A DNA stretch of 32,000 nucleotides from Trichodesmium erythraeum IMS101 (lineage in GTDB: Bacteria > Cyanobacteriota > Cyanobacteriia > Cyanobacteriales > Microcoleaceae). Shown here piece after piece: positions 45 to 20,045 of the stretch; within the stretch, counting starts at the first letter, position 1, and every line of letters starts with the position of its first letter. Both the position numbers and the translations under genes were made by a program. The stretch lies in the NCBI RefSeq assembly GCF_000014265.1, contig NC_008312.1, positions 2,250,001-2,282,000 on the forward strand, read 5' to 3'. The notes under the pieces were generated by a model, which worked only from the letters and a program-made list of their open reading frames with translations, had not been told where the DNA came from and made no database searches.

Positions 45-1889
45 TTAAAAACTTTTTTCCAATACTAACAAATCTTCTTTAATAGATGAAGTCCGACCAC
101 ACCAAGAACCATAAGATTTTTCTAGAACATTAAAGCCTCGTTCTTCTATCCATTGTAATATTAGATTTTCCCTAAAACCAATCCCTTTCTCTGGCAGATT
201 AATATCTATAGTAAAACCATCCTCTATTTCATAAATAAGCTGTTGAGAACTTTTACCTTTAGTAATCAACTCTTCTGATTCTGAATTAATTAAAAAGCAA
301 ATTAATAAACATCTCCCTCCCGGTTGTAAAACTCTATATATTTCATCAAGAAAATGACGAACTACAGAACTTTGTAAATGAATAAATAAACGGGAAATAC
401 AAACACAATTAACACTTGAATTAGGATAAGGAAAAATAAAATCATTGGCAGATATTTTACCTGTAGAATTGTAGATACAGTGATAAATATTGTACCAGTT
501 AAAATTAAAATTCGGCTTACGAGTCGTAATTTCTTGTTTTATCAAGGAAATAAAATCTTCCGTCATATCAAAACCTTGATAACGACCAGAAGGTTGTAAA
601 TAATGAACTAAAGTATAAGCTACAGTACCAATATTGCAACCAATATCAAGAATATAGTCTGTTGGTTGTAAACCTAATCTTTGAATTAAACTTCCTAATA
701 ACTTGAAGGAATTATTAATAAATTGATTACTAATATCTTTCCCAACTATTTCTAGATATTCCCTATCTGGCAGTGGTAAAAGAGGTGTTAATGCTGTTAA
801 TATAACTATACCCTCACCCCTATTAAACAGAGGAATCAAACAAATTAATGAATGTTTTATTTGATTAATTTGTTCTTGATTTAAAAGAACTTTTATGCGG
901 AATCTAGCATTACCTGCACCAGATAAACTAGGGTGAATTTTTTCCACATCTGGACTAGGTATATTCAGAGTTTGTTCAAAGAAACTAAAATCTTGATTCC
1001 CAACAGAAACTTTAAATCCTTGCACCATACCAGCATCTAAGGAGGCAACCCAACCAGATAAATATAAAACTTGATTTTTAAGTATTACCCGATCGATAGA
1101 ACCCCAAGTAAGTAAAGGATTAATTTTTCGTTTCTTGCCAATAATATCTTTCTTTTCAGAGTTATTTTGAGTATAGTATTGTATCTCTGATGTTTTTTTC
1201 CGCCGCTCCCGTAAACTTAATGCTTCTTGATAAATTTCTATATCTTCGTGATTTATGGCTGATATTTTACCGACTATTTCTTGGTTAGATAATACTTCTT
1301 TAATTAATAATTTATATTCTAAATAAGGATTAGTATTTGGAGCTTCTAATTCATACTCTGACCAATCTAACATTACCTTAAGTTCATATAAATCCTCACT
1401 AAAAAATTCTTGGATACCCACAAAATAAAAATATTTTAGTTGCTCGTTTTGCAGAAAATTTAATTTGATTAGATTCTGCATTTCTGGTTTTTCAGCAAAT
1501 TCTATAAAACTCAAATTAGTATCTTTGGAATTTCCTAAATATTCTTGATCATTTGCTAGTAATATTTGCCAGCTCTTCCAAAAAAAGTAAAGAGAAACTA
1601 ACCGCTTGATCGGATTCCTCAGCCAAATAATTTTTTTAGCTCCCGGAAATTTTTGATTATATTTTGGAGCAGGAAAATGACCATGAATTATTTTGACTTC
1701 TGGCTTTTGTTTGGTTAACATCCGATTCCGAATCTGACCTTTGTGAGGGTAGTCAAAGAAAATTTCTTCTGAGCTATATACCTGTCTAATAACACCCTTA
1801 AATGCAGTACCAGCAGTTCTTGGTATATGAATTGAAATAATTTCTATATTAGTACGATCAGGTTTTATAGTTTGATTTCTTTGGGTCAT
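45..1889 (-). CDS. Three-module enzyme: N-terminal Sulfotransfer_2-like domain, central 'GW' module, C-terminal class I SAM-dependent methyltransferase
   Basis: 614-aa ORF. 'IEIISIHIPRTAGTAF' and 'IIWLRNPIKRLVSLYF' resemble the PAPS-binding motifs of sulfotransferase family 2 (hIPKTgGTs / RdPv.R.vS.y). aa ~258-365 hold the 'LSGWV...NIPSPDVEK' module. 'ILDIGCNIGTVAY' and 'VLQPGGRCLL' are Rossmann methyltransferase motifs. Confidence 0.8.
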   Translation of the reverse strand: MTQRNQTIKPDRTNIEIISIHIPRTAGTAFKGVIRQVYSSEEIFFDYPHKGQIRNRMLTKQKPEVKIIHGHFPAPKYNQKFPGAKKIIWLRNPIKRLVSLYFFWKSWQILLANDQEYLGNSKDTNLSFIEFAEKPEMQNLIKLNFLQNEQLKYFYFVGIQEFFSEDLYELKVMLDWSEYELEAPNTNPYLEYKLLIKEVLSNQEIVGKISAINHEDIEIYQEALSLRERRKKTSEIQYYTQNNSEKKDIIGKKRKINPLLTWGSIDRVILKNQVLYLSGWVASLDAGMVQGFKVSVGNQDFSFFEQTLNIPSPDVEKIHPSLSGAGNARFRIKVLLNQEQINQIKHSLICLIPLFNRGEGIVILTALTPLLPLPDREYLEIVGKDISNQFINNSFKLLGSLIQRLGLQPTDYILDIGCNIGTVAYTLVHYLQPSGRYQGFDMTEDFISLIKQEITTRKPNFNFNWYNIYHCIYNSTGKISANDFIFPYPNSSVNCVCISRLFIHLQSSVVRHFLDEIYRVLQPGGRCLLICFLINSESEELITKGKSSQQLIYEIEDGFTIDINLPEKGIGFRENLILQWIEERGFNVLEKSYGSWCGRTSSIKEDLLVLEKSF

Positions 1890-1945
1890 AGTAGCAGACC
1901 GAAGCTTGACTTTTATGATAATAAATGAGGGTTATTAACCCTTTT

Positions 1946-3229
1946 TTAGTTAACAGAATATCCAAATTCTCGCAAAGCATCAGCTAAAACCCGATTGCAT
2001 AATTTTTGCAGGGAAGGTTCTAGATCTTGCCGCCACCTTCCGATAGAGTCTTTAGCGTTAGAGCTAGTTTGATGCCATTGGGTATAGGCAGTATTTTCCG
2101 ATGCTTTTTCTAGCATATTAGCGATCGCCTCCTGAGAGTTATCTAAGTTTAAATATTCTAGAGCTCCCTTTAAAGTTTTTTCTGGGGAGAGAATTAAATC
2201 TTCGTAATGGACTAAATATGCTTCTTGTCTGCGCTTCTTCCACCGCTCCCGCAAACCAGATGACGCATTTTTCATAACTCCTTTAATATATTCCTCATCA
2301 CTTTTAAACTTATTGCGACTAAAACCATCGTTACCTCGTTTCTTATTAAAGGCTAATATTGAAGAAGCTACATCTCGAAAATCCCGAACCAGAATTATTT
2401 CTTTAGCCTGGGGATAAATTTCTGTTAATAAGTCAAGATTAGGATTAAAAGCATTCTTTTCTACAAAATAAGTTAATTCAGAAGAAGAAATTATCTTACC
2501 TTGAGCTTCCGCTATATGTTCGTAAAAAGCATCCAAAGTTTCCTGACAGAAAGCTGCTGCTTTTGGTGGATAATCTGCTTGAAAAGGAGTTTCTATCGGA
2601 TTAGCTCTTTGAGACAAAAATTGCAGCAATTGCATCCAAAAAGGCCATACTCTGGTTTCATAAGCATATATTGGACAAGCTACAATTGCTGGATGTTGGG
2701 AAAGCAACCGCATAAACCAAGTACTTCCCGATCGCCCCGTAGAATTTAATACTAAAGGTTGCAATCTTGGTTGATAACCAGAATCCAGGGGTTCATGGCG
2801 AAATTTTATATCTGCTAAGGGAACAATAGTGCCGTCAGCCAACAAACACCGCAATTTTAAGTTAGCTACCGGAGGCAATCCCAATACCCCTACTGCTGCA
2901 GCAAAACCGCTACTTTTGGCTTCGCTCACTTTTGGGAAACGTTTTTCTACTCCCGGACGGGACTTACTGACCGGAACTTTCTGTAATACTTTTCCTCCAT
3001 TAAGAAATTCTACTGCAACTGCAGGTGATCCCTTACCTAATACCCAGCCTACAATTGAAATTGAATAATTATCTATTTTTTTACCTTTCTGGAGCGAGTC
3101 TATATTAAATCCGATTAATGATTCAGATTCTTGAGACAATTTTTGGACTTGTAAGATTTCAATAAAGGAATTTTGAGTCATTTTTATTTGTGGCAAAGGA
3201 ATCTCAGTTTCATTGTACCTGTTTCTCAT
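1946..3229 (-). CDS. 'GW' module fused to a P-loop sulfotransferase domain
   Basis: 427-aa ORF. aa ~22-146 'GFNIDSLQKG...IVGWVLGK...RPGVEKRFP'. 'NSTGRSGSTWFMRLL' is a 5'-phosphosulfate-binding loop and 'IILVRDFRDVASS' a 3'-phosphate-binding motif. Lies 57 nt upstream of the 45..1889 gene on the same strand. Confidence 0.8.
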   Translation of the reverse strand: MRNRYNETEIPLPQIKMTQNSFIEILQVQKLSQESESLIGFNIDSLQKGKKIDNYSISIVGWVLGKGSPAVAVEFLNGGKVLQKVPVSKSRPGVEKRFPKVSEAKSSGFAAAVGVLGLPPVANLKLRCLLADGTIVPLADIKFRHEPLDSGYQPRLQPLVLNSTGRSGSTWFMRLLSQHPAIVACPIYAYETRVWPFWMQLLQFLSQRANPIETPFQADYPPKAAAFCQETLDAFYEHIAEAQGKIISSSELTYFVEKNAFNPNLDLLTEIYPQAKEIILVRDFRDVASSILAFNKKRGNDGFSRNKFKSDEEYIKGVMKNASSGLRERWKKRRQEAYLVHYEDLILSPEKTLKGALEYLNLDNSQEAIANMLEKASENTAYTQWHQTSSNAKDSIGRWRQDLEPSLQKLCNRVLADALREFGYSVN

Positions 3230-3240
3230 ACAAAAAAATA

Positions 3241-3998
3241 TGGGTGTTGCACAATAGAGAATGATATTCTAGAATTTTATTGAGAGATGGATTGTCCTTA
3301 TTGTCAAAGCCATAAAGTAGTGAAAAATAGTCATCGTCAGGGAAAACAGAGTTATCTTTGCCGTGATTGTGGCCGTCAATTTCGAGATAGCCCCTGTCCT
3401 GCGGGTTATAGTTCTGATGTTAAAGAGCTTTGTGTAAAAATGTCCCTTAATGCCTAGGGATTCCGAGGCATTGAGAGAGTGACTGGTATTTCCTATAATA
3501 CGGTCCTTAATTGGGTACGACTTGCACACAGCACAGAGAGAGTGATCATAACTTAGAAAATCCTGAGACGGCTCAAATTGATGAACTGCAAACTTTTATC
3601 GGCTCAAAAAAAACCAAATTTGGGTCTGGACAGTGTTAAAAAGCAAAATGCCAGGAATTTTCAAGTTTGTGATCGGCGATCGCTGGGCCGCTACCTTTAC
3701 AGTATTATGGCAGATGATTCACGGTTGGGCTTGTTTTCTCGGTTGTTACAGATGCTTACAAGGTGTATCCTTGCTTAATTGATGATTGGGAGCACCTAGT
3801 AAGCAAAACAGAAATGACCATTGTAGTTGGAGAAAACTGCCCTCTGAGAGACTATCTAGCTAGGTTACATCCCAAAACTTTGTGCTACTCCAAGTGAATT
3901 GATATGTACAACATATCAATTCACTTGTTGATCTATTATTTATTTGAAACATCAACAAATTCCTCAATTCTCCTAATCATTCGTCATTGTGCAACGCC
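3241..3998 (+). mobile_element. IS1-family insertion sequence, degenerate (758 bp)
   Basis: Terminal inverted repeats GGTGTTGCACAATAGAGAATGAT (3243..3265) and ATCATTCGTCATTGTGCAACGCC (3976..3998) match at about 20 of 23 positions when complemented. A perfect 9-bp direct repeat AAAAAAATA flanks it (3232..3240 and 3999..4007). Size and 9-bp duplication fit IS1. Confidence 0.8.
3287..3897 (+). pseudogene. IS1-family transposase (InsA/InsB-like), inactivated
   Basis: Translation begins MDCPYCQSHKVVKNSHRQGKQSYLCRDCGRQF (zinc-finger N-terminus of cyanobacterial IS1-type transposases). Recognisable later pieces are GFRGIERVTGISYNTVLNWV, IDELQTFIGSKK, GDRWAATF, VTDAYKVYP and VGENCPLRDYLARLHPKTLCYSK. 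There is an in-frame TAG at 3455..3457 and at least three frame changes, one at the A8 run 3606..3613. Confidence 0.75.
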
Positions 3999-4022
3999 AA
4001 AAAAATAGCTCCATATTCACCC

Positions 4023-4062
4023 TCTCCCCATCTCCCCATCTCCCCATCTCCCCATCTCCCCC
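4023..4062. repeat. Tandem octamer TCTCCCCA, 4 perfect copies plus 1 imperfect
   Basis: Direct reading: tctcccca four times, then tctccccc. Lies 25 nt to the right of the IS1 relic. Reminiscent of cyanobacterial short tandemly repeated (STRR-type) sequences, but an octamer rather than a heptamer. Confidence 0.9.
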
Positions 4063-4169
4063 GCTCTCCTACTCCTTAAAAAAATACTTTTGCAGCAAAC
4101 CCTAATTATACCCAAGCAGGATCGTGAATAGCATCTGAGTCTTTAGTAATCTCAGAAGCATAACATTCA

Positions 4170-4730
4170 TCAATAAATTTTTCTCCTCTTTATATTGTAC
4201 TGACTATACTGTTTTTGCCAGAAGCCACCATATTTTTTTGATATATCTGAGGTTGCATTATAAGCTTTTCCCCCATTCAGAATTTTTTGTTTTATCTGTT
4301 CTCTAGAACGATATCTATATTGTCTGAGTATAAGTCCATGATTCTGTCCAAGTATTGTAATAGGTAGCTTCTCATCATTCAACCTGATCAGGTGATGCCC
4401 TTGAGTAATTTCCATACCAGGTTGCCAGCGAACCATAACCTTACGAATATTAGTATCTTTCTTTTTTCTGTGAGTCATTCTTTTCAGAGGATTAATTTCA
4501 GATAAATCGTAAAATGAACGGAGTACATGGTTCCTATGTTGTAAACCAAGACAAAAGTGTTCTGGTTCCAATTGGCTCAGAATATCTGGTAGAGGTTTCC
4601 CTGATGAAGACATCACTTCATCAGCATCAAATGGAAATATCCATTCTGCTCCCCACATTCTATGGGCAAACTCAGCAGCAGCAGACATTTTCCTAAATTT
4701 ATGAAATAAAGGATCTCGATCTTCAATCAA
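4170..4730 (-). pseudogene. C-terminal fragment of a glycosyltransferase family 2-like domain, separated from its 5' part by an IS
   Basis: ORF starts artificially at a TTG. It contains 'WIFPFDADEVM', a DxDE motif of GT2-like (Glyco_tranf_2_4-type) proteins. It is in the same genomic phase as ORF 5847..7025 and continues that sequence once the IS is removed. Confidence 0.7.
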
Positions 4731-4734
4731 GTAA

Positions 4735-5877
4735 TACCAATTTCATAAACTTAAGCTACACTTTTAGAAGTAACCTATTATAGAAAATGTCCCCATGTCA
4801 GGAGTAGTAAAAATTGAGATAAATGAATCGGTAGAAACTCTCAAAAAACTTTTAAAAAGTGCGAGTACAGCTCAAGAAAAGGAAAGACTTCAAACTATTT
4901 ACTGGTTGAAAACTCAAACAGTAGAAACAGTAAAAGAAATTGCGATAATGTTAGGACGCAATCGAGTCACAGTACAAAAATGGTTAGGGAAATATCGTAC
5001 AGGTGGACTGAATCTTTTACTAGAACCAAAGAAAAATCTAGGAGGGAGGCCAAGTTCAATTCCACCAAATGTAATCGAGAAATTAGAAGCAGAATTGCAA
5101 AACCCGGAAGGTTTCCAAAGCTATGGTGAAATTCAACAGTGGTTAACGACTTGTTTTGACATCGAGCTGTCTTATCGAACAGTTCATCAATTAGTCAGAT
5201 ATAAATTAAAAAGTAAATTAAAAGTTCCACGTCCAAATCACATAAAACAAAATAAAGAAGCTCAAGAAAACTTTAAAAAAAACTCTCATCTCAACTAGAA
5301 GAGAAAATTAAGTTAATTAATAAATATTCGGAAAATCAACTGCCAATTCGCTATTGGTGTCAAGACGAGACTAGAATTGGATTAAAAACTATAACAGGTA
5401 AAGTCATTACTGCTTGCGGTGTTAAGCCCATTGGTTTATATCAATGGCTATTTAAATATCTATGGCTTTATGGTTTAGTAGAACCAAAAACAGGAGATTC
5501 CTTTTTTTATGAATTTAGTCATCTAGATACTCCTTGCTTTGAAAGATTTTTAGAGCTTTTTTCTCAAACATATCCTGAAGAGATTCATATTATTCAACTA
5601 GATAACGGGCGAGGGCATCTAGGGAATGATTTATCTATCCCTGATCACATCATTTTATTATTTCAACCTCCTTATTGTCCCGAAGTTAATCCCATTGAAA
5701 GACTGTGGAAAGAGGTGAAAAAATTCTTGAAAAATCGAGTTTTCGATTCCTTAGATTTCTTACGCAGAATCCTGAGAAATATATTAACTGGATTTAGTCA
5801 AAAAGATATTGCTTCTTGTACAGGATATGATTTTATTCTTGAAGCATTATGTGTAGTCGGACTTTAGGAAATTGGTA
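4735..5877 (+). mobile_element. IS630/Tc1-mariner-family insertion sequence (1143 bp including terminal TA)
   Basis: Terminal inverted repeats TACCAATTTCATAAACTTAAGCTACAC (4735..4761) and GTGTAGTCGGACTTTAGGAAATTGGTA (5851..5877): outer 11 bp perfect, inner part imperfect. Flanked by TAA on both sides (4732..4734 and 5878..5880). Encodes an HTH + DDE transposase. Confidence 0.85.
4795..5867 (+). CDS. IS630-family DDE transposase, two frames joined by a -1 shift at an A8 run
   Basis: orfA 4795..5298 has an HTH/winged-helix N-terminus ('VKEIAIMLGRNRVTVQKWLGKYRTGG'). The -1 frame continues from the A8 run 5275..5282 (A_AAA_AAC context) to the TAG at 5865..5867. That frame carries 'YWCQDETRIG', 'IQLDNGRGH' and 'FQPPYCPEVNPIERLWKEVK', a DD(35)E-type triad. 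Confidence 0.8.
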
Positions 5878-7025
5878 TAAACCATTGCTTCTGGATAGTC
5901 ATCAGCAAAGCGTCTAATTTCATCCCTAGTTCCATCTGAGGACATATGATCCAACATTACGAAATGTTTGATGCCTTCTCTATAATTTCCAGCTAGATTG
6001 TAATAGATAATATCCTCTTCATCTTTCACGATTGACACACCAGCTATAACTACATTTTCTTTAATCTTCTGAGATATTGGCCTTTGATTAGAAATTGATT
6101 GGCTTTTTCCTATAACTGTCCTTTGTTCAAATGGCTTTTCCCACCAATAAGTATGGCGAGGGTTGCTAACAGTTTTTGTCAATTGCCAATCTTGTAATAA
6201 ATCTTGAGCTTGTTTATACTTCCCCCTTTGCGCATCATCCAACATCAATATTCCACCTGGCTTTAAAAGTTTAATTGATGCTTCAAAACATTTCATTCGA
6301 TCGCGACCATCTACAATAATTAAATCGAAAGATTCTTCAGCAAACTTTTCGCATATTTTATGATATGGTCTTGCTAATAATTGAATATCTACTGGATGGC
6401 AATTTTTCTGCAGTTGAATCTGATTTTTTACCTCCTGAAACCACCTAGCATCGTGCTCAATAGAAGTCAGATTTTGAGTTAATTTAGATAGCCATATTGT
6501 CGAAGCGCCACTACCAAATTCTAAGACTTTAGCATGAGGTTTTTCCTGGAAAAATTTTTCTAAAAATTCAATAGCTTTTTTTGTTATTAGAGGAGTTTTA
6601 CGAACATTTAGTGATTTCTCCTGATAACTTTGAATACAACCTATTGGTATCCGAGTTTCATCAGCAAATACTGCTTGAATTAGCCAGTTAAATTTCGGTG
6701 GTAATTTATCAGCTATAAAATCTATATTAAAACCTATTTCTGCTCCTTGAGATGTTTCTGTATAAAACTTAACTATATCAGGATATGACTCATTAACAGA
6801 TACTTTTTTGACAACATGCCTCAAAGATGCTACTTCCACAGCAACAATAGGACACTTTTTTCCCAATACCCATCCAGAAATATTAATAATATCTTCGTTA
6901 TCAATTTGTTCCTTGATATATTTAATTTCATATCCCCAAAATAACTCATCATAAATTTCACCTAAATTCCGATCGTAGGTTTGAACAAACATTTGCACTG
7001 ACTGAGAGTTTTGATCTGGTAGCAT
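5847..7025 (-). pseudogene. 'GW' module + class I SAM methyltransferase + start of a GT2-like domain, truncated by the IS630 insertion (native sequence 5878..7025)
   Basis: aa ~12-132 'ISGWVLGKKCPIVAVEV'. 'VLEFGSGASTIWLS' and 'LIIVDGRDRMKCF...LKPGGILMLDD' are methyltransferase motifs. 'VSIVKDEEDIIYYNL...VMLDHMSSDGTRDEI' is the GT2-like N-terminus. The last nine codons and the stop (TNFLKSDYT*) are read from IS sequence. Confidence 0.75.
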
Positions 7026-7130
7026 AATTAAAATTTATTTTTCGTTAAATTTACTTGAGAAAATAAAAAGAGCGCAAAATGTTTTTAATTTTTTCCTATT
7101 CCCCACTCTTTCTATTGAAGACTTTTGAGG

Positions 7131-8564
7131 TTATTGAAGCTGGAGCAAGTTAGCAATTCTTTTTAATTGTTTAGGAGATTTACATAAAATAGCAAAACCT
7201 TTTCCATCTTTGTGCCATTCAAGTTTATGTACTTCTGGATAACGATTACAAAAATCCCTAACTGCTCTATTAACTGCAGGAAATCTCACACCTTTAGGAG
7301 GCTTTGATTTATAATCATCTACTATAATAATTCCCTGGGGATTTAAAAAAGGAAGTGAGGATTCTAAATCGTGAAAACATCCTTTATAAGAATGGTCTCC
7401 ATTAACAGTAAACAAATCTAAACCTGGCGAATAATTTTTTTGGTAAAATTCAGGATTAAGGAATTCGTTACTATCCCCTTCAATAATTTGATAGTGTTGA
7501 AATTCTCCCATTAATATAGAAGCCATTTCTCTGCCAAAGGGAGTTATATAATCCAGGTTTTTATCCAAAGATATAAAAGTTTTCGGACTACAAGAACTTA
7601 ATACTACTGCCGCGGACCTACCTGTGGCAAAACCAGTTTCTAAAACATTTTTCGGCTGAATTATCTTACAAAGATTACTAATGAAAATTGCTTGATCTGG
7701 GTTCAAATGTCCCTTTTTACACCACAACTTGCTGTCAAATAAATTTTCTAGGTTATTATTCGCGATCGCCTCTTTCACTGGATTAGATTTATGCTCAATT
7801 TTACTACTTTTAACAACACTCCTCACCTGCTGATTTTGTTGCTGTTTAATCTTATTTTTTTGTGGTTTTTGCAAAGTTTGACTGTAACGCTTTTCTCTGA
7901 TACTTAATGCCTGTTTATAAATTTCCATATCCTCACTATTAAGAGTCGCTACTTTCTTGACAATAGAGCGATCGTTGAACACCTCTTTTTTAATTCTTTG
8001 ATAATCAGAATAAATATTATTATTTTCTTGGCTAACTGTTACATCTGGCCAAAAAAGAAGATTTTTTAATTGCTGTAAATCTTCCTCAAAAAATTCCTGT
8101 ATCCCTACAAAGAAGAAATCTTCTAGTTTCATATCTCGCAGATAAACTGACATTATATTTTGATTTTCAGGTATTTGAGCAAACTCCCAAAAACTAAAAT
8201 TTTTCTGCTGTAGCAAATCATAAAATACTGTCCGTCTAAATACCTTATTAAAACAGTAATAAGATATTAAAAAATTAACTGGTTCTCTCAGCCAAATAAT
8301 TCTTTTAGCATCCGCAAATTTATGCTTATATCTAGACCCAGGAAAATGCCCGTGAATCACCCTTACATTAGCATCTCCTTCTTTCATAAACTGACGTTGG
8401 TAATCTTTTTCATAAGGATAATCCAAAAATACTGCTTCTGGACTGTACACTTTGAATAAAACCCTAGTAAAAGCTGAACCAGCAGTTTTTGGCACATGAA
8501 CAGAAATAATTTCCACTCCTGTTTTTTTGTCTTTCATTTCTTTGAAATTAGAACTAATTACCAT
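7131..8564 (-). CDS. Sulfotransfer_2-like domain fused to an O-methyltransferase-like (Methyltransf_24/3-type) class I SAM methyltransferase
   Basis: 477-aa ORF. 'VEIISVHVPKTAGSAF' and 'IIWLREPVNFLISYY' are paralogous to the N-terminus of the 45..1889 product. 'VLETGFATGRSAAVV' and 'DLFTVNGDHSYKGCFHDL...GIIIVDDY' are the methyltransferase motifs. Confidence 0.8.
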   Translation of the reverse strand: MVISSNFKEMKDKKTGVEIISVHVPKTAGSAFTRVLFKVYSPEAVFLDYPYEKDYQRQFMKEGDANVRVIHGHFPGSRYKHKFADAKRIIWLREPVNFLISYYCFNKVFRRTVFYDLLQQKNFSFWEFAQIPENQNIMSVYLRDMKLEDFFFVGIQEFFEEDLQQLKNLLFWPDVTVSQENNNIYSDYQRIKKEVFNDRSIVKKVATLNSEDMEIYKQALSIREKRYSQTLQKPQKNKIKQQQNQQVRSVVKSSKIEHKSNPVKEAIANNNLENLFDSKLWCKKGHLNPDQAIFISNLCKIIQPKNVLETGFATGRSAAVVLSSCSPKTFISLDKNLDYITPFGREMASILMGEFQHYQIIEGDSNEFLNPEFYQKNYSPGLDLFTVNGDHSYKGCFHDLESSLPFLNPQGIIIVDDYKSKPPKGVRFPAVNRAVRDFCNRYPEVHKLEWHKDGKGFAILCKSPKQLKRIANLLQLQ

Positions 8565-8639
8565 TAATTTATTCTGCTCCTGATCATACCAAATATCAAA
8601 ATTATTACTATACTATATTTCCTTTATCCATTAATTAAC

Positions 8640-12895: not shown

Positions 12896-13981
12896 ATGAA
12901 ATTTTTTAAACCAACGGAACCCGTATTAACTAGGGGTAAACTTGAAAAATCAATTATGGTAGATGGTACGGTACATTTACAAGGTTGGGTAACATCCTTC
13001 GAGCAGAAAAAATTAGATGGAATGCTAGTTTCTATCGCTGGCCAGGAATTTAGAAACATTGAATTAACCTACAACTTACCTTCTCCAGGGGTCAAAAAAA
13101 AATATCCCTACATTCCAGGAACGGAAAAAGCTAGATACCAGATCCGAATACCTCTGACAAAGCAACAGCAAAAGCAATTTAAAAATTCTTTGGTTTTGTT
13201 AACTCCCTCATTAGATGGGCAACCTGGTGGAATAATGACGAACGCTTTAGAACCCTCTTTGCCTATTCCTCCTCATGAATACATTAAGTTTGTAGGGGGG
13301 CATTTTACAGATGTGGGTTTCAACTTTCTCGGTTATTAGATCCAAATGGTAGGTTTGGAACCGACGGACAAAGTCTTAGATATTGGTTGCGGTGTAGGCC
13401 GCATTGCTTATCCTTTAACCTATTATCTAAAAGATGGAGGTGGATATGAGGGTTTTGATATTAGTGAAAAGTTAATTAAGTGGGCTAAATCTGAAATTAG
13501 TTTGAGGTTTCCTAATTTCAATTTTCAGGTAGTCGATATCCATAATAAAATGTACAATCCTGAAGGAAATGTTCAAACTTTGGATTTTGTATTTCCCTAC
13601 CAGGATAAAAGTTTTGATTGGGTTGTGTTAACTTCGGTGTTTACTCATTTGCAGGCAAAGGAAGTCCGACATTATCTGGATGAAATTACTAGGGTATTAA
13701 AACCTCGCGGTCGATGTTTGTGTACTTGTTTTCTCTTAAACCCTGAGTCAGAAGCAGCAATGACCAAAAATAAAAAGGCTCGTCAAATTGTACATCCACT
13801 TGAGGAGTGTTTTACCGCCACTCCCAAGATACCAGAGTCTACTATTGGTTATAAAGAAGGGTTACTTTTAGGCTGGATGCAAGAACGAGGGTTAAGTCTA
13901 GCGGGAAAATATTATGGTCATTGGTGTGGGCGGAGAAAGTTTACCAGTCATCAAGATATATTGGTATTGCAAAAAAGTTAG
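12896..13981 (+). pseudogene. 'GW' module + class I SAM methyltransferase, interrupted by one in-frame TAG (13337..13339)
   Basis: ORFs 12896..13339 and 13346..13981 are in the same frame. Together they are collinear to the very C-terminus with aa ~258-614 of the 45..1889 product ('FLGY*IQMVGLEPTDKVLDIGCGVGRIAY' vs 'LLGSLIQRLGLQPTDYILDIGCNIGTVAY'; 'ILVLQKS' vs 'LLVLEKS'). Confidence 0.75.
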
Positions 13982-14762: not shown

Positions 14763-14822
14763 TTTCTAGCCCATGACAATTCTACCGAGAATCAGAAGTA
14801 TAGTCTTTCTTAACAATAAACT

Positions 14823-17800
14823 ATGAGAGAAATGAATTCTTTATCATCACTTAATTCAGAAACTCCAACCCAATACTTCCAACAAGGCCAACAAGCTGTA
14901 GCAGCAGGCCAACTAGAAAAAGCTGTTACTCTCTACAAAAAGACTATCGAACTGAATCCTAACTTGGCCTTGTATCAGCAAAATTTAGGAGATGTTCTAG
15001 CTAAAATAGGTAAATGGGAAGAAGCAGCTACAGTCTATCAAAAAGCGATAGAACTAAAACCTACTTCTGCATTATCTCATTACAACTTGGGAAATGTCCA
15101 AGAAAAACAAGGTCAGTTGGAACAAGCGATCGCTTCTTATTCCCAGGCCATTAAGATTAATCCTAATTTCTCAGAATTATACATTAGTTTGGGATCAGCC
15201 TTAGTCCAGAAAGGGTTACTTTATGAAGCGATCGCCAATTTCCAAAAGGCTATATCCCTAGAACCTGAATCTAGTATTGCCCATCAAAACTTAGGAGTGG
15301 CTTTAGAAAAACAAGGTCAGATTGAAGAAGGGATAATCTGTTATCGCAAAGCTATTGAAATTGACCCTGGCTTCTGGGAAGGATACCAAAAGTTAGGAAT
15401 AGCCTTGACAAAACAGGGAGAATTCCATCAAGCTGCCAAAATTTATTTAAAGGCTTGTCAAATAATTCCTAATTCTGCTACGGTTTATCATCATTATGGG
15501 GAAACTCTGGCCAAATTGCGTCGGTGGGATGAGGCTATTGCTGCTTATCGTCAAGCAATAAAACTTGAAGCAAATTCCCCCGTTATTTATCATCAATTTG
15601 GATATGTTCTAACCCAAAAACAACAATGGGAAGAAGCTATATCTGCTTATCGCCAGGCAATCAAAATTAAACCAAACTCCCCAGATGTTTATCACCATCT
15701 TGGTGACGCTCTGACTCAACAGCAAAATTGGGAAGAAGCTGTAGGAGCTTACCGCAAAGTAACGGAACTCCAGCCCAATTCCCCAGAAGTTTATCATTAT
15801 TTCGGATATGCCCTCTCTCAACTCCAACAATGGGAGGAAGCTATAGTTGCTTACCGCAAAGCTTCTGAACTTCAACCTAACTCTCCAGATGTGCATCATC
15901 AGTTAGGCCATGCTTTGATTGAATTGAAACAAAATGATTGGGCCGTCGTAGAACTCCGCCAGGCCGTGGAACTTAATCCTAACTTAGCTGAAGCTTACAG
16001 GGACTTGGGCAGAGCTTTGAGTAATATTAAGCAGTGGGATGAGGCGATCGCTTCTTTCCAAGGTGCCATTGAACTTAATCCTAACTTAGCTGAAGTATAT
16101 GGTTATTTAGGGAAAGCTTATGCCTCACAAAAACAGTGGGATGAAGCTATTGTTAATTATGGCCATGCTCTAAAACTTAACCCCAAGTTGCCGGAAGTTC
16201 ATCATAATCTAGCTTTAACTTTGGTGCAGCAACAAAAATTTGATGATGCTATTGTCAGTTATGGTCAAGCTATTGAACTAGGTATTAATACAGCAGAAAT
16301 TCACCATCAGTTAGGTCATACCTTGAGTAAACTGAAACGGTGGGATGAGGCAGTTATCAGTTATCGCCAGGCAGCAGAAATTAATCCTAATTCGGCCGCA
16401 GTTTATCATGTCCTGGGGGAAAGTCTGGCTCAACTAGAAAAGTGGGATGAAGCTGTGGCTGCTTATACTAAAGCTAGTCAACTTCACCCTAAATCTGCTG
16501 ATGTGAGGTACCATATTGGGGAAGTTATGTCAAGATTAGGTAGATGGGATGAAGCAGTGGAAGCTTATGGGAAAGCTGTAGAATTAAGACCATCATCGGC
16601 AAAGTTTCATTTTCAGTTAGGGGAAGCTAAGACTAAAAAAAATCCATTAACTGAAGCAATAAGTTGTTATCGTCGTGCTTTAGAAATAGACCCTCATTTT
16701 TCTAAGGCTAAGAAAAAATTAGAAGAAGTTTCATCATTTCAAAATGTCCTGAGAACAGGGGAACTTGGTAGCCTAAGTTTGTTAGGAGAAACAGAATTTG
16801 AAGGTTGTCTTGATTATGCCACTATCGACTATGTTTCTGGTTGGGCAAGACATAAAAAAGATCCTGAAAAAGTTGTATTTCTTGATATTTTTGTCGGCAA
16901 TAATTTAGTTGGTACATTAGTCGCAAATAAATATCGTCAAGATTTAGCAGAAGCTTTTGATACTCACGGATATCATGCTTTTGCTCATAAAATTCCTCCA
17001 TCTTTACATAGTAATGGTTTAGTTGAAGTTAGTGTCAAAATAACAGAAACAGGTCAACAACTAAAAAATTCTCCTAAACCATTAGTAGTCGGACCAAAAG
17101 GTCAAAAACATGAAATTAATCTCAGTTTTAATCAGGGAGAAATTAATAAACTTATCTATCGCCTTCAAAAGGTAAAAACTCAGAAGTTAAAATTCACAAG
17201 TCAGATACCACCAGCAAAAATTCAGACAGAAAAACCAGCAGTAGCAGTAATTATTTTGAGTTTGAATGGAGCAAAACTATTAAAAGAGTTATTTGCTTCC
17301 TTTGAAATTTACAACAGCTATGAAAATTTTGAATTAATAGTAGTAGACCACGGGTCAATAGATAATACTATTGATGTTTGTAACCAGTGGTCAGAAAAAT
17401 TACCAATTACAATTATTGCCAGGGGAGATAATTATTCTTTTTCCAACTCAAATAATGTGGGAGTGAACCAAACAAAAGCTCCTTTATTGCTATTTATGAA
17501 TAATGATATTACTTTTTGCCAAGACATTATTCCCCAGATGGTTGATTTAATTCAAGCAGATGAAAATCTAGGAATGGTAGGAGTAAAATTATTAGATATA
17601 GTCAGCGATCGCTCCTTAGCTTTTCCTCCTACTCAACATTTAGGAGTACAGTTATATTTCCACAGTCAAAATGAGCCTTTTTATCCTTATGAAGTTCGAT
17701 ATGCTCCTCAATTATTAAAAGTACAATCTGCTCCTTGGAAAGTGCCTGTTGTTACTGGAGCATTAATGATGTGTCGGCGTGAAGATTTTCAGAAAGTTGG

Positions 17801-20045
17801 AGGTTTTAATGAAGACTATTTTTATGGTTATGAAGATGTAGATTTATGTTTAACTATCCAACAAAAACTAGGCAAAGAAATTATCAGCGCTAATCATTTA
17901 ACAGCTTTTCATAATCGAGGTTTTTCTCGGTTTAATAAAGGGAAAGAATTTGTCAATAAAATCTTGAAAAATCGCCCAATAATTGAAGAAAGGTTTGCTT
18001 ATTATTTGCGTCGAAAACATCTACAAGATTTCTTTGAAAAAGGAATGTATTGGACTGGGCATCCTTTAACTATTGGATTTGCTGTAACCGAAGCAGATAT
18101 GGCAGCTTCCGCAGGAGATTATTTCACAGCGGTGGAATTAGGAGAACAATTAGTTAAAGAATTCGGATGGGATGTTTATTATATTTCTGAAGGAGAAGAT
18201 TGGTATGATATGACACGATTAGATGTAATTGTAGTTATGCGCCATGATTATGATTTAGAAAGAATAGAAAATGCTAAACCAAGTTTAGTAAAAGTGGCTT
18301 GGGCAAGAAATTGGTTTGAGATTTGGGCTTCTCAAAAATCAGCAGGAGATTATGATTGTTTCTGGTGTTCTTCTCAAAAATCAGCTGATTATATTCAGCA
18401 GAAATTATTTAAGCCAGTAACAGTAGTTAGAATAGCAACTAATGATGAACGTTTTTATCAGGAGGGCAGAAGTCAAGAAGGAGTTAATTCTGAAGTTAAA
18501 AGTCAAAATTCAAAAGTTACAAGTTTAGACAATAATTCTGAAGTAGCAATTTTTGAACAAACGGAAAAAGTTAATTCAGAATTAGAGAATAAGTATAAAT
18601 CTGACTATTGTTTCACAGGAAGTTTCTGGAAATATCCACGGGATATTATGAGTTTTTTGAAACCAGATAATTTACCTTTTGAGTTTGCTTTGTATGGATA
18701 TAATTGGGAAAAATTTGATAAGTTTAAAAAGTATAATCGGGGACCTTTTCCTTATACAGATATGCCTCAAATTTATGCTTCGACAAAAATAGTAATTGAT
18801 GATGCAAATTCAGTTACAAAACAATGGGGTTCCACAAATTCTAGGGTATTTGATGCTATTATTTCTGGTGCATTAGTTATTACTAATAGCGAGCTGGGAA
18901 ATCAAGAATCTTTCGACGGACTATTACCTACTTATAATTCCCGCGAATCTCTGGAAAATTTATTACGAGAGTATCTAACAAATGAGGAGTTAAGATTAGC
19001 CAAAGTGGCAGAGTTACAGAAAATAGTCAAAGAAAAACATACTTATAAACATCGCGCTTATACAGTATTTTCTACCTTGCGCGAAAAAATGAGTAATAGT
19101 TTCCGCATCAGTATAAAAATTGGAGTTCCTGACTGGAAACAGGCGCAAGAATGGGGAGACTATCATTTTGCTTTAGCTATGAAACGGCAATTTGAAATTA
19201 ATGGTCATTCCGTCAGAATTGATATTTTGCCAGAGTGGGAAACTCCCGAAGCATTTGGAGATGATGTGGCAATTACTATCCGTGGTTTAAGTCGTTATCA
19301 ACCTAAGTCTTATCATATTAATTTGATGTGGAATATTAGTCATCCAGATAAAGTATCTCTGGAAGAATATGAGGAATATGACCAAGTATTTGTGGCATCT
19401 AATTCTTATGCTAAAGAGTTACAAAAACAAGTGAAAGTTCCGGTAAAAACTTTGCTCCAATGTACAGATCCAAGTTTGTTTTACCCTGATAAAGAAGGTT
19501 ATGAAGAAGTAGGAGAAATTTTGTTTGTGGGAAATTCTCGAAAAGTTTACCGTCAGATAGTAAAAGATGCAGTTGAGAGTGGTTTAAAGATAGATGTTTA
19601 TGGTACAAACTGGGGTAATTTATTGCCTGATGGTTATTTAAAAGGAGAATATATTCCCAATGAAATTTTACGACGTTATTACAGTAAGTCTGGCGTGTTA
19701 TTAAATGACCATTGGAATACTATGAGAGAAAAAGGGTTTATTTCAAATCGTTTATTTGATGCTGCTGCTTGTGGGGCAACAATTGTATCTGACAAAATTT
19801 CAGGTTTAGAAGAGGTATTTGGAGATCAAATTTCTACTTATAATTCTGGGGAAGATTTGCCAAAAGTAGTAGAATATTGTTTGCAGCAAAAAAGTCATAA
19901 TTCAGGAGAAGAATTAGAGTTAGCAAAGTATGTTCAAGAAAATCATAGTTTTGAGAAAAGGGTCTGGGAAATCTTAGGAACTATTGAGAGGTTGAATGAA
20001 GAAAAAATGTTGGGTAAGTTCATAAAATCAGAAGCAGCAATCTAG
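14823..20045 (+). CDS. Giant multidomain protein: ~18 TPR repeats, 'GW' module, GT2 glycosyltransferase, two CgeB-like (Glyco_trans_1_2-type) domains
   Basis: 1740-aa ORF. A 34-aa periodicity runs over aa ~15-628 ('WEEAIxAYRQAIxLxPNSPxVYHxLG'). aa ~657-755 'IDYVSGWARH...YRQDLAEAF'. The GT2 region has 'AVAVIILSLNG', 'LIVVDHGSIDNT', 'LFMNNDITF' and 'GYEDVDLCL'. 'STNSRVFDAIISGALVITNS' and 'ISNRLFDAAACGATIVSDK' mark two CgeB-like C-terminal glycosyltransferase folds. Confidence 0.85.
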   Translation: MREMNSLSSLNSETPTQYFQQGQQAVAAGQLEKAVTLYKKTIELNPNLALYQQNLGDVLAKIGKWEEAATVYQKAIELKPTSALSHYNLGNVQEKQGQLEQAIASYSQAIKINPNFSELYISLGSALVQKGLLYEAIANFQKAISLEPESSIAHQNLGVALEKQGQIEEGIICYRKAIEIDPGFWEGYQKLGIALTKQGEFHQAAKIYLKACQIIPNSATVYHHYGETLAKLRRWDEAIAAYRQAIKLEANSPVIYHQFGYVLTQKQQWEEAISAYRQAIKIKPNSPDVYHHLGDALTQQQNWEEAVGAYRKVTELQPNSPEVYHYFGYALSQLQQWEEAIVAYRKASELQPNSPDVHHQLGHALIELKQNDWAVVELRQAVELNPNLAEAYRDLGRALSNIKQWDEAIASFQGAIELNPNLAEVYGYLGKAYASQKQWDEAIVNYGHALKLNPKLPEVHHNLALTLVQQQKFDDAIVSYGQAIELGINTAEIHHQLGHTLSKLKRWDEAVISYRQAAEINPNSAAVYHVLGESLAQLEKWDEAVAAYTKASQLHPKSADVRYHIGEVMSRLGRWDEAVEAYGKAVELRPSSAKFHFQLGEAKTKKNPLTEAISCYRRALEIDPHFSKAKKKLEEVSSFQNVLRTGELGSLSLLGETEFEGCLDYATIDYVSGWARHKKDPEKVVFLDIFVGNNLVGTLVANKYRQDLAEAFDTHGYHAFAHKIPPSLHSNGLVEVSVKITETGQQLKNSPKPLVVGPKGQKHEINLSFNQGEINKLIYRLQKVKTQKLKFTSQIPPAKIQTEKPAVAVIILSLNGAKLLKELFASFEIYNSYENFELIVVDHGSIDNTIDVCNQWSEKLPITIIARGDNYSFSNSNNVGVNQTKAPLLLFMNNDITFCQDIIPQMVDLIQADENLGMVGVKLLDIVSDRSLAFPPTQHLGVQLYFHSQNEPFYPYEVRYAPQLLKVQSAPWKVPVVTGALMMCRREDFQKVGGFNEDYFYGYEDVDLCLTIQQKLGKEIISANHLTAFHNRGFSRFNKGKEFVNKILKNRPIIEERFAYYLRRKHLQDFFEKGMYWTGHPLTIGFAVTEADMAASAGDYFTAVELGEQLVKEFGWDVYYISEGEDWYDMTRLDVIVVMRHDYDLERIENAKPSLVKVAWARNWFEIWASQKSAGDYDCFWCSSQKSADYIQQKLFKPVTVVRIATNDERFYQEGRSQEGVNSEVKSQNSKVTSLDNNSEVAIFEQTEKVNSELENKYKSDYCFTGSFWKYPRDIMSFLKPDNLPFEFALYGYNWEKFDKFKKYNRGPFPYTDMPQIYASTKIVIDDANSVTKQWGSTNSRVFDAIISGALVITNSELGNQESFDGLLPTYNSRESLENLLREYLTNEELRLAKVAELQKIVKEKHTYKHRAYTVFSTLREKMSNSFRISIKIGVPDWKQAQEWGDYHFALAMKRQFEINGHSVRIDILPEWETPEAFGDDVAITIRGLSRYQPKSYHINLMWNISHPDKVSLEEYEEYDQVFVASNSYAKELQKQVKVPVKTLLQCTDPSLFYPDKEGYEEVGEILFVGNSRKVYRQIVKDAVESGLKIDVYGTNWGNLLPDGYLKGEYIPNEILRRYYSKSGVLLNDHWNTMREKGFISNRLFDAAACGATIVSDKISGLEEVFGDQISTYNSGEDLPKVVEYCLQQKSHNSGEELELAKYVQENHSFEKRVWEILGTIERLNEEKMLGKFIKSEAAI

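What the first reader, a model, noticed from the sequence alone, without database searches (positions are those of the whole stretch)
45..20045. A ~110-aa 'GW' module is fused to seven different catalytic scaffolds
Seven genes carry a collinear segment centred on an invariant G-W.

Subtype A has the pattern GFNID..KG......I.GWVLGK......E......RPGV.K.FP....GF......L...L.D.T..PL. It occurs at aa ~22-146 of 1946..3229, ~205-332 of 8640..10496, ~95-220 of 10811..12151 and ~12-132 of 5847..7025.

Subtype B has the pattern L.GWV/A.....N(L/I)PSP(D/G)V.K......AR(F/Y).I. It occurs at aa ~258-365 of 45..1889 and ~8-112 of 12896..13339, with a more distant copy at ~657-755 of 14823..20045.

The fusion partners differ: P-loop sulfotransferase, two methyltransferase types, a GT-A/DxD transferase, and GT2 with CgeB-like domains. 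A non-catalytic module shared across chemically different tailoring enzymes suggests a common substrate-recognition or targeting domain, for example a carbohydrate-binding module comparable in role to the Wzt C-terminal domain that reads capped O-antigen termini. I cannot assign it to a named family from memory.
Basis: partly seen in the sequence, partly recalled or inferred. Interest (0 to 1): 0.8.

Follow-up and report, generated by a model that had tools for sequence, protein, structure and literature searches.

The report
Ig-like accessory domain on glycan-tailoring enzymes
Seven genes in this cyanobacterial sugar-modification cluster carry the same small, unannotated Ig-like beta-sandwich domain just in front of different enzymes. 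It is a distant cytoplasmic cousin of the Big_7 repeats of bacterial cell-wall hydrolases, and it probably holds the sugar polymer or assembles the enzymes, though neither has been shown.

Summary
All seven segments exist at the stated places and a six-frame profile scan finds no others in the window. Subtype A (4 copies) and subtype B (2 copies) are each significant by BLASTP (E 1e-10 to 1e-29). A, B and the distant copy in the TPR-glycosyltransferase link only by profile-profile comparison (A-B 95.9%, A-I 95.4%; controls E >= 0.03).

The module is not orphan. An exhaustive profile search finds 2226 cluster representatives. Most top hits are secreted peptidoglycan hydrolases with 4-15 tandem copies that Pfam calls Big_7. 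The window's own copies hit no Pfam or NCBIfam model. AlphaFold gives confident Ig-like beta-sandwiches (pLDDT 90 and 88) with no close solved structure and no Wzt-C match.

Corrections: there are five partner architectures, not seven. The "stand-alone" copy is a module+methyltransferase gene cut by a real in-frame TAG. One carrier gene is split by an insertion sequence. Four more copies lie in the next gene outside the window.

The function is inferred, not shown. I favour a substrate-holding, CBM-like accessory domain placed directly N-terminal to each catalytic domain (0.45), over an oligomerisation or scaffold role as in TarS (0.3). It is an unannotated variant of a known fold class, of moderate interest.

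The parts
2783..3133 (-). Subtype A module, aa 33-149 of 1946..3229. It is followed after 9 residues by a Sulfotransfer_3 domain (aa 159-363).
   Evidence: famA HMM 154-175 bits. Pfam partner. AlphaFold model pLDDT 90.3, 7 strands plus 2 short helices.
9489..9842 (-). Subtype A module, aa 219-336 of 8640..10496. It lies between an N-terminal domain of about 195 aa (PSB-like motif, weak NoeE hit) and Sulfotransfer_3 (aa 354-564).
   Evidence: BLASTP to 1946..3229 over the whole length, E 2e-96. famA 144-177 bits. Pfam and NCBIfam.
11480..11836 (-). Subtype A module, aa 106-224 of 10811..12151. It lies between a charged or coiled N-terminus and a GT-A-like (Nucleotid_trans-like) domain.
   Evidence: BLASTP to the 1946 module, E 6e-29, 42% identity. 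Pfam Nucleotid_trans 20.7 bits, just under its 22-bit cutoff.
6606..6956 (-). Subtype A module, aa 24-140 of 5847..7025. It is followed by Methyltransf_24 and the start of Glyco_tranf_2_4. The gene is truncated by an IS insertion, and its remainder is ORF 4170..4730.
   Evidence: BLASTP E 2e-13, 6e-12 and 5e-10 to the other A copies. P0043 aligns contiguously across both ORFs.
765..1124 (-). Subtype B module, aa 256-375 of 45..1889. It lies between a Sulfotransfer_2-like domain and a class I methyltransferase (Methyltransf_25/11).
   Evidence: BLASTP to 12896..13339, E 6e-29. famB 163-221 bits. Pfam.
12914..13270 (+). Subtype B module, aa 7-125 of 12896..13339. The ORF ends at a TAG (13337-13339) and continues in frame as the methyltransferase ORF 13346..13981.
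   Evidence: Read-through translation. 13346..13981 is 48% identical to aa 405-613 of 45..1889. AlphaFold model pLDDT 88.5. The same 147-aa product is found in 67 blocks of the public assembly collection.
16785..17102 (+). Distant (I-type) module, aa 655-760 of 14823..20045. It lies between 18 TPR repeats and GT2 (aa 809-992) plus two Glyco_trans_1_2 domains.
   Evidence: hhalign to family A 95.4%, E 2e-8, and to Big_7-type repeats 88.9%, E 2.4e-6. As a single sequence it finds tandem-array proteins at E 1e-49 to 1e-126 with Z = 1.8e9. It is 88% identical to its ortholog against 67% for the rest of the protein.
13337..13339 (+). In-frame TAG that separates the subtype B module ORF from its methyltransferase ORF.
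4170..5847 (.). Detached 3' part of the 5847..7025 gene (4170..4730, minus strand) and the inserted element that carries a transposase-like ORF (4795..5298, plus strand).
   Evidence: P0043 alignment. (HTH_32, HTH_23 and HTH_33 hits).

Best explanation
The 'GW module' is a domain of about 115 residues with an Ig-like (E-set type) beta-sandwich fold. It is a remote, currently unannotated relative of the Pfam Big_7 repeats that form tandem arrays in secreted peptidoglycan hydrolases.

In this cluster it occurs as single copies in soluble, apparently cytoplasmic enzymes. It is nearly always fused directly N-terminal to a catalytic domain that modifies a glycan: sulfotransferase, SAM methyltransferase or glycosyltransferase.

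Most likely it is a non-catalytic accessory domain that binds or positions the polymeric, lipid-linked glycan acceptor next to the active site. That would be a CBM-like role, comparable to the E-set/CBM48 domains in front of GH13 catalytic domains and to the Ig-like domains of TarS. Each paralog would be tuned to its own catalytic partner rather than all reading one common epitope.

Shown: the homology, the fold class, the domain order and the distribution. Inferred: the cytoplasmic location, the glycan substrate and the binding role.
For: 1. Homology and extent. A profile of the seven segments finds 2226 cluster representatives at E <= 1e-3. Subtype-only profiles and hhalign tie A, B and I to the same hub family, and the controls are clean.

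2. The hub family is Big_7. All 40 tandem-array proteins scanned match PF17957. Of these, 24 also carry Amidase_3 and 23 carry Glucosaminidase, with others carrying GH25 or NlpC/P60. Single repeats score 20-45 bits against a cutoff of 24.1. That is the architectural position normally held by wall-binding repeats.

3. An endolysin link. The C-terminal domain of the E. faecium prophage amidase EfAmi1 matches the hub profile (E 1.2e-4 at PDB size; weakly matches the A2 profile). Its authors describe that domain as of unknown structure and function and suggest a new carbohydrate-binding module (PMC10167349). An Enterococcus phage endolysin is the second-best BFVD structural match.

4. Fold. AlphaFold models reach pLDDT 90.3 and 88.5 with the same strand order. 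Foldseek returns only Ig/FN3-like sandwiches.

5. Anatomy. The module directly precedes a catalytic domain in all seven window genes and in most relatives. The gap is 8-9 residues before every Sulfotransfer_3 examined and 3-14 residues before GT2 or Sulfotransfer_2. Multi-enzyme polypeptides carry about one module per catalytic domain: P0046 is GT92-A-ST-B-MT, and the neighbouring 2041-aa gene is B-ST2-B-MT-B-B-MT-GT2-GT2.

6. Location. Of the 40 hits with 3 or fewer copies, 1 has a signal-peptide-like N-terminus, against 86 of the 111 tandem-array proteins. No TM or signal segment is found in the window proteins.

7. Precedent. TarS is a cytoplasmic glycopolymer glycosyltransferase whose Ig-like CBM-type domains contribute to processivity (PMC5156392).
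Against: - No binding has been measured for this module or for any Big_7 repeat, as far as I could find.
- Conserved positions in family A are mostly hydrophobic, Gly or Pro. Only D15, E45, R62 and D103 are conserved polar residues, and there is no aromatic platform typical of many CBMs.
- Across subtypes only G-W is invariant. That looks like a fold signature rather than a shared ligand site.
- Ig-like domains often serve as spacers or oligomerisation units, and in TarS the same domains form the trimer.
- The modules evolve slightly faster than their catalytic partners in orthologs: 48-67% against 56-73% identity.
Confidence: 0.45

Rival explanations
1. Oligomerisation or assembly domain. The Ig-like modules pair with each other, homo- or heterotypically. 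This would build oligomers, or a multi-enzyme tailoring complex, from the many module-bearing enzymes encoded side by side.
For: - At least 11 copies are encoded within about 26 kb of one cluster.
- The TarS Ig-like domains form an extensive trimer interface (PMC5156392).
- The conserved residues look structural.
- The short fixed linkers would suit a rigid dimer handle.
Against: - Multi-catalytic polypeptides carry one module per catalytic domain, which is more than oligomerisation would need.
- Homologous repeats in secreted hydrolases occur as 4-15 tandem copies, a pattern typical of ligand-binding or stalk repeats.
- No interface prediction could be run.
Confidence: 0.3
2. Passive structural spacer or folding aid. 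A generic Ig-like domain with no ligand of its own, spread by domain shuffling and kept as an N-terminal cap that stabilises the catalytic domain.
For: - Ig/FN3-like modules are common spacers.
- Only a fold-type signature is conserved across subtypes.
- The modules are slightly less conserved than their catalytic partners.
Against: - Within each subtype conservation is high, and several polar positions are fixed.
- The I-type copy is more conserved than the rest of its protein, 88% against 67%.
- The association with glycan-acting enzymes is strict, across at least Cyanobacteriota and Planctomycetota.
Confidence: 0.15
3. One shared recognition or targeting domain that reads a common terminal epitope of the polymer, like the Wzt C-terminal domain, and so directs all seven enzymes to the same substrate end.
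For: - All partner enzymes act on glycans, and all are encoded in one cluster.
- The A module is shuffled between unrelated catalytic folds while keeping 42-46% identity.
Against: - Pfam Wzt_C gives no hit at E <= 10, and no Wzt structure is among the top 50 Foldseek matches.
- The A, B and I subtypes share under 20% identity.
- B and I are not even directly linked by hhalign.
- No ABC transporter or export gene lies in the window.
Confidence: 0.1

Closest known systems
Pfam Big_7 (PF17957, 'Bacterial Ig domain'), specifically the tandem repeats of clostridial-type peptidoglycan hydrolases (Glucosaminidase - repeats - Amidase_3)
   Same: - Homologous by profile-profile comparison: family A 99.2%, B 97.6%, I 88.9%.
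- Same GW ... RPDV..YP ... SGF signature, aligned in register.
- Ig-like beta-sandwich.
- Non-catalytic module attached to enzymes that act on glycans.
   Different: - The window modules do not reach the Pfam model at all: no hit at E <= 10 or E <= 1.
- They occur as single copies in proteins without signal peptides, not as 4-15 tandem copies in secreted proteins.
- The partners are biosynthetic (sulfo-, methyl- and glycosyltransferases) rather than hydrolytic.
C-terminal Ig-like (CBM-type) domains of S. aureus TarS, the wall teichoic acid beta-GlcNAc transferase
   Same: A cytoplasmic enzyme that tailors a lipid-linked glycopolymer and carries Ig-like accessory domains. Those domains are proposed to bind the polymer and were shown to affect processivity (PMC5156392).
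   Different: - The TarS domains are C-terminal, tandem, resemble CBM48/CBM68 and form a trimer.
- No sequence or Foldseek link to the GW module was found.
- The module here is N-terminal to the catalytic domain and single.
Wzt C-terminal carbohydrate-binding domain of O-antigen ABC transporters
   Same: A cytoplasmic beta-sandwich that recognises a modified glycan. The established role is stated from my own knowledge and was not tested here. It serves only as a conceptual analogue for a cytoplasmic glycan reader.
   Different: - No Pfam Wzt_C match and no structural match in the top 50.
- Wzt-C is attached to a transporter ATPase, not to tailoring enzymes.
- No transporter gene lies in the window.
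C-terminal domain of the Enterococcus faecium prophage endolysin EfAmi1 (sequence of PDB entry 8C4D)
   Same: - Matches the hub repeat profile (E 1.2e-4) and weakly the A2 profile (E 0.15), with GW, RPDV and GF aligned.
- A related Enterococcus phage endolysin is a top BFVD structural match.
   Different: - It is an extracellular lysin domain.
- Its structure is not in the crystal and its function is only guessed (PMC10167349).
- The link to the window modules themselves is indirect.
Listeria 'GW' cell-wall-anchoring modules (InlB, Ami; SH3b-like)
   Same: Only the name, and the presence of a Gly-Trp dipeptide.
   Different: - No Pfam GW-domain hit.
- The predicted fold is a seven-stranded Ig-like sandwich with two short helices, not an SH3-like barrel.
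- The label 'GW module' should be avoided to prevent confusion.

Membership tests
Pfam Big_7 (PF17957) | Sequence scores at or above the family's gathering threshold (24.1 bits) against the Pfam HMM | tested here: not met
   None of the 7 window segments hits at E <= 10. None of 47 A/B/I module sequences hits at E <= 1.
Pfam Big_7 (PF17957) | Homology to bona fide members, at superfamily level | tested here: met
   hhalign of families A, B and I against repeats that Pfam itself calls Big_7 gives 99.2%, 97.6% and 88.9%. Controls give E >= 0.03.
Ig-like / E-set beta-sandwich fold | Seven-stranded two-sheet sandwich whose best structural neighbours are Ig/FN3-type domains | tested here: met
   AlphaFold pLDDT 90.3 and 88.5. 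Foldseek neighbours are FN3, Ig constant-like and E-set domains, but only at E 2e-3 to 1e-1 and TM <= 0.5.
Wzt C-terminal glycan-binding domain (Pfam Wzt_C) | Sequence match to Wzt_C, or structural match to the Wzt-C jelly-roll | tested here: not met
   No Pfam hit at E <= 10. No Wzt entry among the 50 best PDB matches.
Wzt C-terminal glycan-binding domain (Pfam Wzt_C) | Fusion to an ABC-transporter nucleotide-binding domain | tested here: not met
   The partners are sulfotransferases, methyltransferases and glycosyltransferases. No ABC ATPase lies in the window.
Carbohydrate-binding module (CAZy sense) | Demonstrated carbohydrate binding by the isolated module | not testable with these tools
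   This needs recombinant protein and glycan binding assays. Only contextual evidence is available.
Carbohydrate-binding module (CAZy sense) | Sequence membership in an existing CBM family | tested here: inconclusive
   No CBM-type Pfam model hits. The CAZy CBM library itself was not available.
Listeria GW module (SH3b-like) | Match to the GW/SH3b profile and an SH3-like fold | tested here: not met
   No Pfam hit. The predicted fold is an Ig-like sandwich.
TarS-type Ig-like trimerisation / CBM48-68-like domains | Structural similarity to CBM48/68, and trimer formation | tested here: inconclusive
   No TarS or pullulanase N-domain entry appears in the Foldseek top 50. The oligomeric state cannot be tested here.

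The most novel reading that the evidence does not exclude
The A and B subtypes define a new family of cytoplasmic glycan-binding modules. It descends from the same stock as the wall-binding Big_7 repeats of autolysins and endolysins. Each paralog would recognise a particular state of the growing sulfated or methylated polysaccharide. The set of modules would then dictate which tailoring enzyme acts where and in what order: a built-in 'reader' attached to each 'writer'.
Probability: 0.25. Interest if true: 0.65.

Novelty: new variant of a known kind. Interest (0 to 1): 0.42.

Why it matters
Biosynthesis of sulfated polysaccharides in cyanobacteria is barely understood, and marine filamentous forms carry many sulfotransferase genes (PMC8205485).

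A recurrent, unannotated domain sits 8-9 residues in front of each sulfotransferase domain. It also sits in front of methyl- and glycosyltransferase domains in the same clusters. That makes it an obvious handle for learning how these enzymes find and order their substrates, and for engineering modified polysaccharides.

A profile for it would annotate the glycan-tailoring relatives that Pfam misses (33 among the 150 best of 2226 representatives). It would also link them to the Big_7 repeats of autolysins and endolysins, whose own function is untested. If the module binds glycans, both groups gain a function at once.

Tried and rejected
- **Word-index homolog search.** Three runs (one segment, a 7-sequence profile and a 47-sequence profile) returned only one protein, P0001, an ortholog of the 12896 ORF. 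This tool was useless for the family. The exhaustive HMMER search was needed.
- **Direct family scans.** Pfam at E <= 10, NCBIfam and PHROGs gave nothing for the window modules.
- **PDB sequence searches.** Profiles and two tandem-array proteins gave no solved relative. The only hit was the weak EfAmi1 match, and that domain is missing from the crystal.
- **Foldseek.** Only generic Ig/FN3 neighbours at E >= 2e-3, so no functional transfer is possible.
- **The search for related loci with alignments.** Both runs failed because no stretch was conserved enough. A single-protein scan found only two related MAG loci, so a genome-wide table of fusion partners could not be built. The partner table rests on the 33 A/B-type proteins among the 150 best exhaustive hits.
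- **Module as an integral subdomain of one enzyme family.** Rejected, because the same module sits on unrelated catalytic folds.
- **Relation to Listeria GW/SH3b modules.** Rejected: no hit and a different fold.
- **The TAG after the 12896 ORF as a sequencing error.** Rejected, because the same product is in 67 blocks of public assemblies.
- **Surface mapping of conserved residues.** Could not be done because model coordinates are not exposed. Only a strand-wise hydrophobicity and conservation list was made.
Full report
**1. What is in the window**

Pfam assigns the following partners.

| ORF | Strand | Architecture |
|---|---|---|
| 45..1889 | - | Sulfotransfer_2-like, gap, class I methyltransferase |
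| 1946..3229 | - | gap, Sulfotransfer_3 |
| 5847..7025 | - | gap, Methyltransf_24, first third of Glyco_tranf_2_4 |
| 8640..10496 | - | about 195 aa unknown, gap, Sulfotransfer_3 |
| 10811..12151 | - | charged N-terminus, gap, weak Nucleotid_trans (GT-A) |
| 12896..13339 | + | nothing |
| 14823..20045 | + | 18 TPR repeats, gap, GT2, two Glyco_trans_1_2 |

The "gaps" are the finding. No Pfam or NCBIfam model touches any of the seven segments, even at E <= 10.

**2. Is the repeat real?**

An all-against-all BLASTP of the window's proteins gives these results.
- The four subtype A segments match each other at E 5e-10 to 6e-29. The 1946 and 10811 modules are 42% identical although their catalytic parts are unrelated.
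- The two subtype B segments match at E 6e-29.
- Between subtypes, BLASTP and simple HMMs see nothing significant.

I therefore collected relatives with an exhaustive HMMER search. I built separate family alignments with subtype-specific profiles and compared them with hhalign.

| Comparison | Probability | E-value | Columns |
|---|---|---|---|
| A vs B | 95.9% | 5.7e-9 | 88 |
| A vs I | 95.4% | 2e-8 | 55 |
| B vs I | 3.8% | 0.011 | 57 |
| A vs hub tandem repeats | 99.2% | 9e-20 | 98 |
| B vs hub tandem repeats | 97.6% | 3e-12 | 70 |
| I vs hub tandem repeats | 88.9% | 2.4e-6 | 76 |

- B vs I is not significant on its own.
- Reversed-sequence and column-shuffled controls never fall below E 0.03.
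- The alignments put GW on GW, (R/S)P(D/G)V on RPDV and GF/RF on GF.
- G-W is invariant in a 47-sequence alignment.
- A six-frame scan with all four profiles finds exactly seven copies in the window. None lies in 7131..8564, 22168..25125 or 25783..29412.

**3. Corrections to the description**

- **(a) The stand-alone copy is not stand-alone.** 12896..13339 and 13346..13981 are one reading frame interrupted by a single TAG. Read through, the product (...FLGY*IQMVGLEPTD...) is collinear with aa 254-613 of 45..1889. The same 147-aa product is found in 67 blocks of public assemblies, so the stop is genuine.
- **(b) 5847..7025 is truncated.** P0043 (658 aa) aligns to it over residues 67-445 (79% identity) and to ORF 4170..4730 over residues 446-635 (70% identity). 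A transposase-like ORF lies between them (4795..5298). The original gene was module + Methyltransf_24 + Glyco_tranf_2_4.
- **(c) There are five architectures, not seven.** 1946 and 8640 are paralogs over their full length. 45..1889 and 12896+13346 share the module+methyltransferase unit.
- **(d) The cluster holds more copies.** The gene just beyond the left edge (2041 aa, locus L002) reads B-Sulfotransfer_2-B-MT-B-B-MT-GT2-GT2.

**4. What the module is**

The profile of the seven segments finds 2226 cluster representatives at E <= 1e-3 and 809 at E <= 1e-10. Among the best 150:
- 111 carry 4-15 tandem copies, and 86 of these start with a signal-peptide-like hydrophobic stretch.
- 40 carry 1-3 copies, and only one of these has such a start.

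I scanned 40 of the tandem-array proteins.
- All 40 match Pfam Big_7 (PF17957, "Bacterial Ig domain").
- 24 also carry Amidase_3 and 23 carry Glucosaminidase.
- Others carry GH25, NlpC/P60 or subtilase domains.
- Single repeats score 20-45 bits against Big_7, whose cutoff is 24.1 bits. They match over its whole length with an insertion of about 17 residues that holds the RPDV..YP motif.

None of 47 A/B/I modules reaches Big_7, or any consistent Pfam family, even at E <= 1. The window's modules are therefore an unannotated, divergent branch of the Big_7 / Ig-like superfamily.

**5. Structure**

- AlphaFold2 on the subtype A module with a 47-sequence alignment gives pLDDT 90.3 and pTM 0.83. It predicts seven strands, with GW in the middle of strand 2 and two short helices formed by the RPGV..FP....A segment.
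- Subtype B with 13 sequences gives pLDDT 88.5. It has the same order of elements plus one extra helix.
- Foldseek against the PDB returns only FN3, Ig constant-like and other E-set sandwiches, at E >= 2e-3 and TM <= 0.5. No Wzt entry appears.
- Against viral models the best matches are at E of about 2e-3. They include an Enterococcus phage endolysin.
- By sequence, the only PDB-listed protein with the motif set is the E. faecium prophage amidase EfAmi1 (8C4D, aa 207-290). It scores E 0.15 against the A2 profile and E 1.2e-4 against the hub profile.
- The EfAmi1 paper states that this C-terminal domain had no known structure or function and was lost from the crystal. Its authors think it may be a new peptidoglycan-binding module (PMC10167349).

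So no solved structure of this family exists.

**6. Anatomy and distribution of the cytoplasmic branch**

The 33 A/B-type proteins among the top hits carry the following partners:
- Sulfotransfer_3/1 and Sulfotransfer_2
- Methyltransf_24 and Methyltransf_11/25
- Glycos_transf_2, Glyco_tranf_2_4 and GT92
- an IRX15/GXM-type methyltransferase
- in one case, radical SAM + SPASM + sulfotransferase

The module almost always lies directly N-terminal to a catalytic domain (coordinates).
- Every Sulfotransfer_3 examined starts 8-9 residues after it: 1946..3229, P0005, P0033, P0056, P0075, P0091, P0098, P0115 and P0117.
- GT2 and Sulfotransfer_2 domains start 3-14 residues after it.
- Methyltransferase domains start 11-51 residues after it.
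- Exceptions with a C-terminal module exist (P0102, P0124).

Polypeptides with several catalytic domains carry roughly one module each. P0046 is GT92-A-sulfotransferase-B-methyltransferase.

Named sources are Microcoleaceae cyanobacteria (Okeania, Dapis, MO_207.B10) and a Thermoguttaceae (Planctomycetota) MAG. Orthologous clusters occur in a Microcoleaceae MAG and a "tar biofilm" cyanobacterial MAG. The window's own source is not named. Its low G+C (about 33%) and its nearest relatives suggest a marine Microcoleaceae such as Trichodesmium, but that is inference.

The window proteins have no TM or signal segments. PAPS-, SAM- and NDP-sugar-dependent chemistry also points to the cytoplasm, which is again inference.

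In orthologs the A and B modules are slightly less conserved than the catalytic parts (48-67% against 56-73% identity). The I module is more conserved than the rest of its protein (88% against 67%).

**7. How it most likely works**

Shown:
- a shuffled, non-catalytic Ig-like domain
- homologous to the non-catalytic repeats of wall hydrolases
- fixed immediately in front of glycan-modifying catalytic domains, one per domain

Inferred: it binds or positions the polymeric acceptor beside the active site. This would resemble E-set/CBM48 domains in front of GH13 enzymes (my own knowledge). It would also resemble the Ig-like domains of TarS, which contribute to processivity and are proposed to bind poly-ribitol phosphate (PMC5156392). 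I put this at 0.45.

The main rival, at 0.3, is oligomerisation or assembly of a multi-enzyme complex. TarS illustrates this as well.

Evidence against a simple binding model:
- Conserved positions are mostly core-type. In family A only D15, E45, R62 and D103 are conserved polar residues.
- Only G-W is invariant across subtypes.

There is no relation to Wzt-C. The three subtypes are under 20% identical. Each subtype tends to keep its own partner class, with B on Sulfotransfer_2 and Methyltransf_25-type domains and A on Sulfotransfer_3, Methyltransf_24 and glycosyltransferases.

**8. Comparison with known families, and novelty**

- **What it works like:** an appended Ig-like or CBM-type accessory domain of carbohydrate-active enzymes.
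- **What it belongs to:** the Ig-like/E-set fold class and, by remote homology, the Big_7 superfamily. It fails the Pfam membership threshold. It is not Wzt_C and not the Listeria GW/SH3b module, so the nickname "GW module" invites confusion.
- **What is new:** a sequence family not covered by current libraries, and its cytoplasmic deployment on sulfo-, methyl- and glycosyltransferases with a fixed N-terminal placement.
- **What is not new:** the fold, and the idea of Ig-like accessory domains on glycan enzymes.

I rate it a new variant of a known kind. It is of moderate interest (0.42) because the function remains untested.

Noticed in passing
window 12896..13981 (+), TAG at 13337-13339: A module+methyltransferase gene is split by one in-frame TAG, and an ATG follows two codons later. 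The same 147-aa product occurs in 67 blocks of public assemblies, so the stop is fixed in the population. It is either a pseudogene or a genuine two-ORF arrangement.
   Followed up: partly
window 4170..7025: An insertion carrying an HTH_32/HTH_23/HTH_33 transposase-like ORF (4795..5298, +) splits a module+Methyltransf_24+Glyco_tranf_2_4 gene into 5847..7025 and 4170..4730. The intact relative P0043 aligns contiguously across both pieces.
   Followed up: yes
window 3269..3800: Short ORFs lie between 1946..3229 and the GT remnant. One has a CxxC...CxxC zinc-finger-like start (3287..3457, MDCPYCQSHK...CRDCGRQF). They look like further mobile-element debris.
   Followed up: no
window 22168..25125 (-) and 25783..29412 (-): Two giant coiled-coil enzymes without the module. 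The first is about 330 aa of coiled coil plus a Glyco_transf_61-like domain plus Methyltransf_24. The second is a Sulfotransfer_3-like head plus about 900 aa of coiled coil. The coiled coil contains a 42-bp x 9.1 tandem repeat (26368-26750) that encodes the 14-residue unit TELVESNSQLQQTK, and further repeats of 147, 189 and 282 bp. Enzymes joined to long coiled coils recall WbdD-type molecular rulers (my own knowledge, untested here).
   Followed up: partly
window 8640..10496 (-), aa 1-195: An extra N-terminal domain with a sulfotransferase PSB-like motif (CTPRSSSYTF) and a weak NoeE hit precedes the module. It is conserved in P0091 (82% identity). It may be a second, degenerate sulfotransferase domain.
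   Followed up: partly
window 7131..8564 (-): A Sulfotransfer_2-like + Methyltransf_24 enzyme whose N-terminal half is 43% identical to that of 45..1889. It has a Q/K-rich low-complexity linker where 45..1889 has the module. It looks like a natural 'module-less' comparator.
   Followed up: no
L002 3500..9625 (gene adjoining the window's left edge): A 2041-aa protein with four more subtype B modules interleaved with Sulfotransfer_2, two methyltransferase domains and two GT2 domains. The cluster therefore holds at least 11 module copies.
   Followed up: yes
P0056 (Thermoguttaceae MAG) and P0006, P0022, P0074 (T9SS-type cargo): A-type modules also occur on a planctomycete sulfotransferase. I-type modules form arrays of 9-15 copies in proteins that end in a Por_Secre_tail sorting domain, and Pfam does not annotate those repeats either.
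   Followed up: partly
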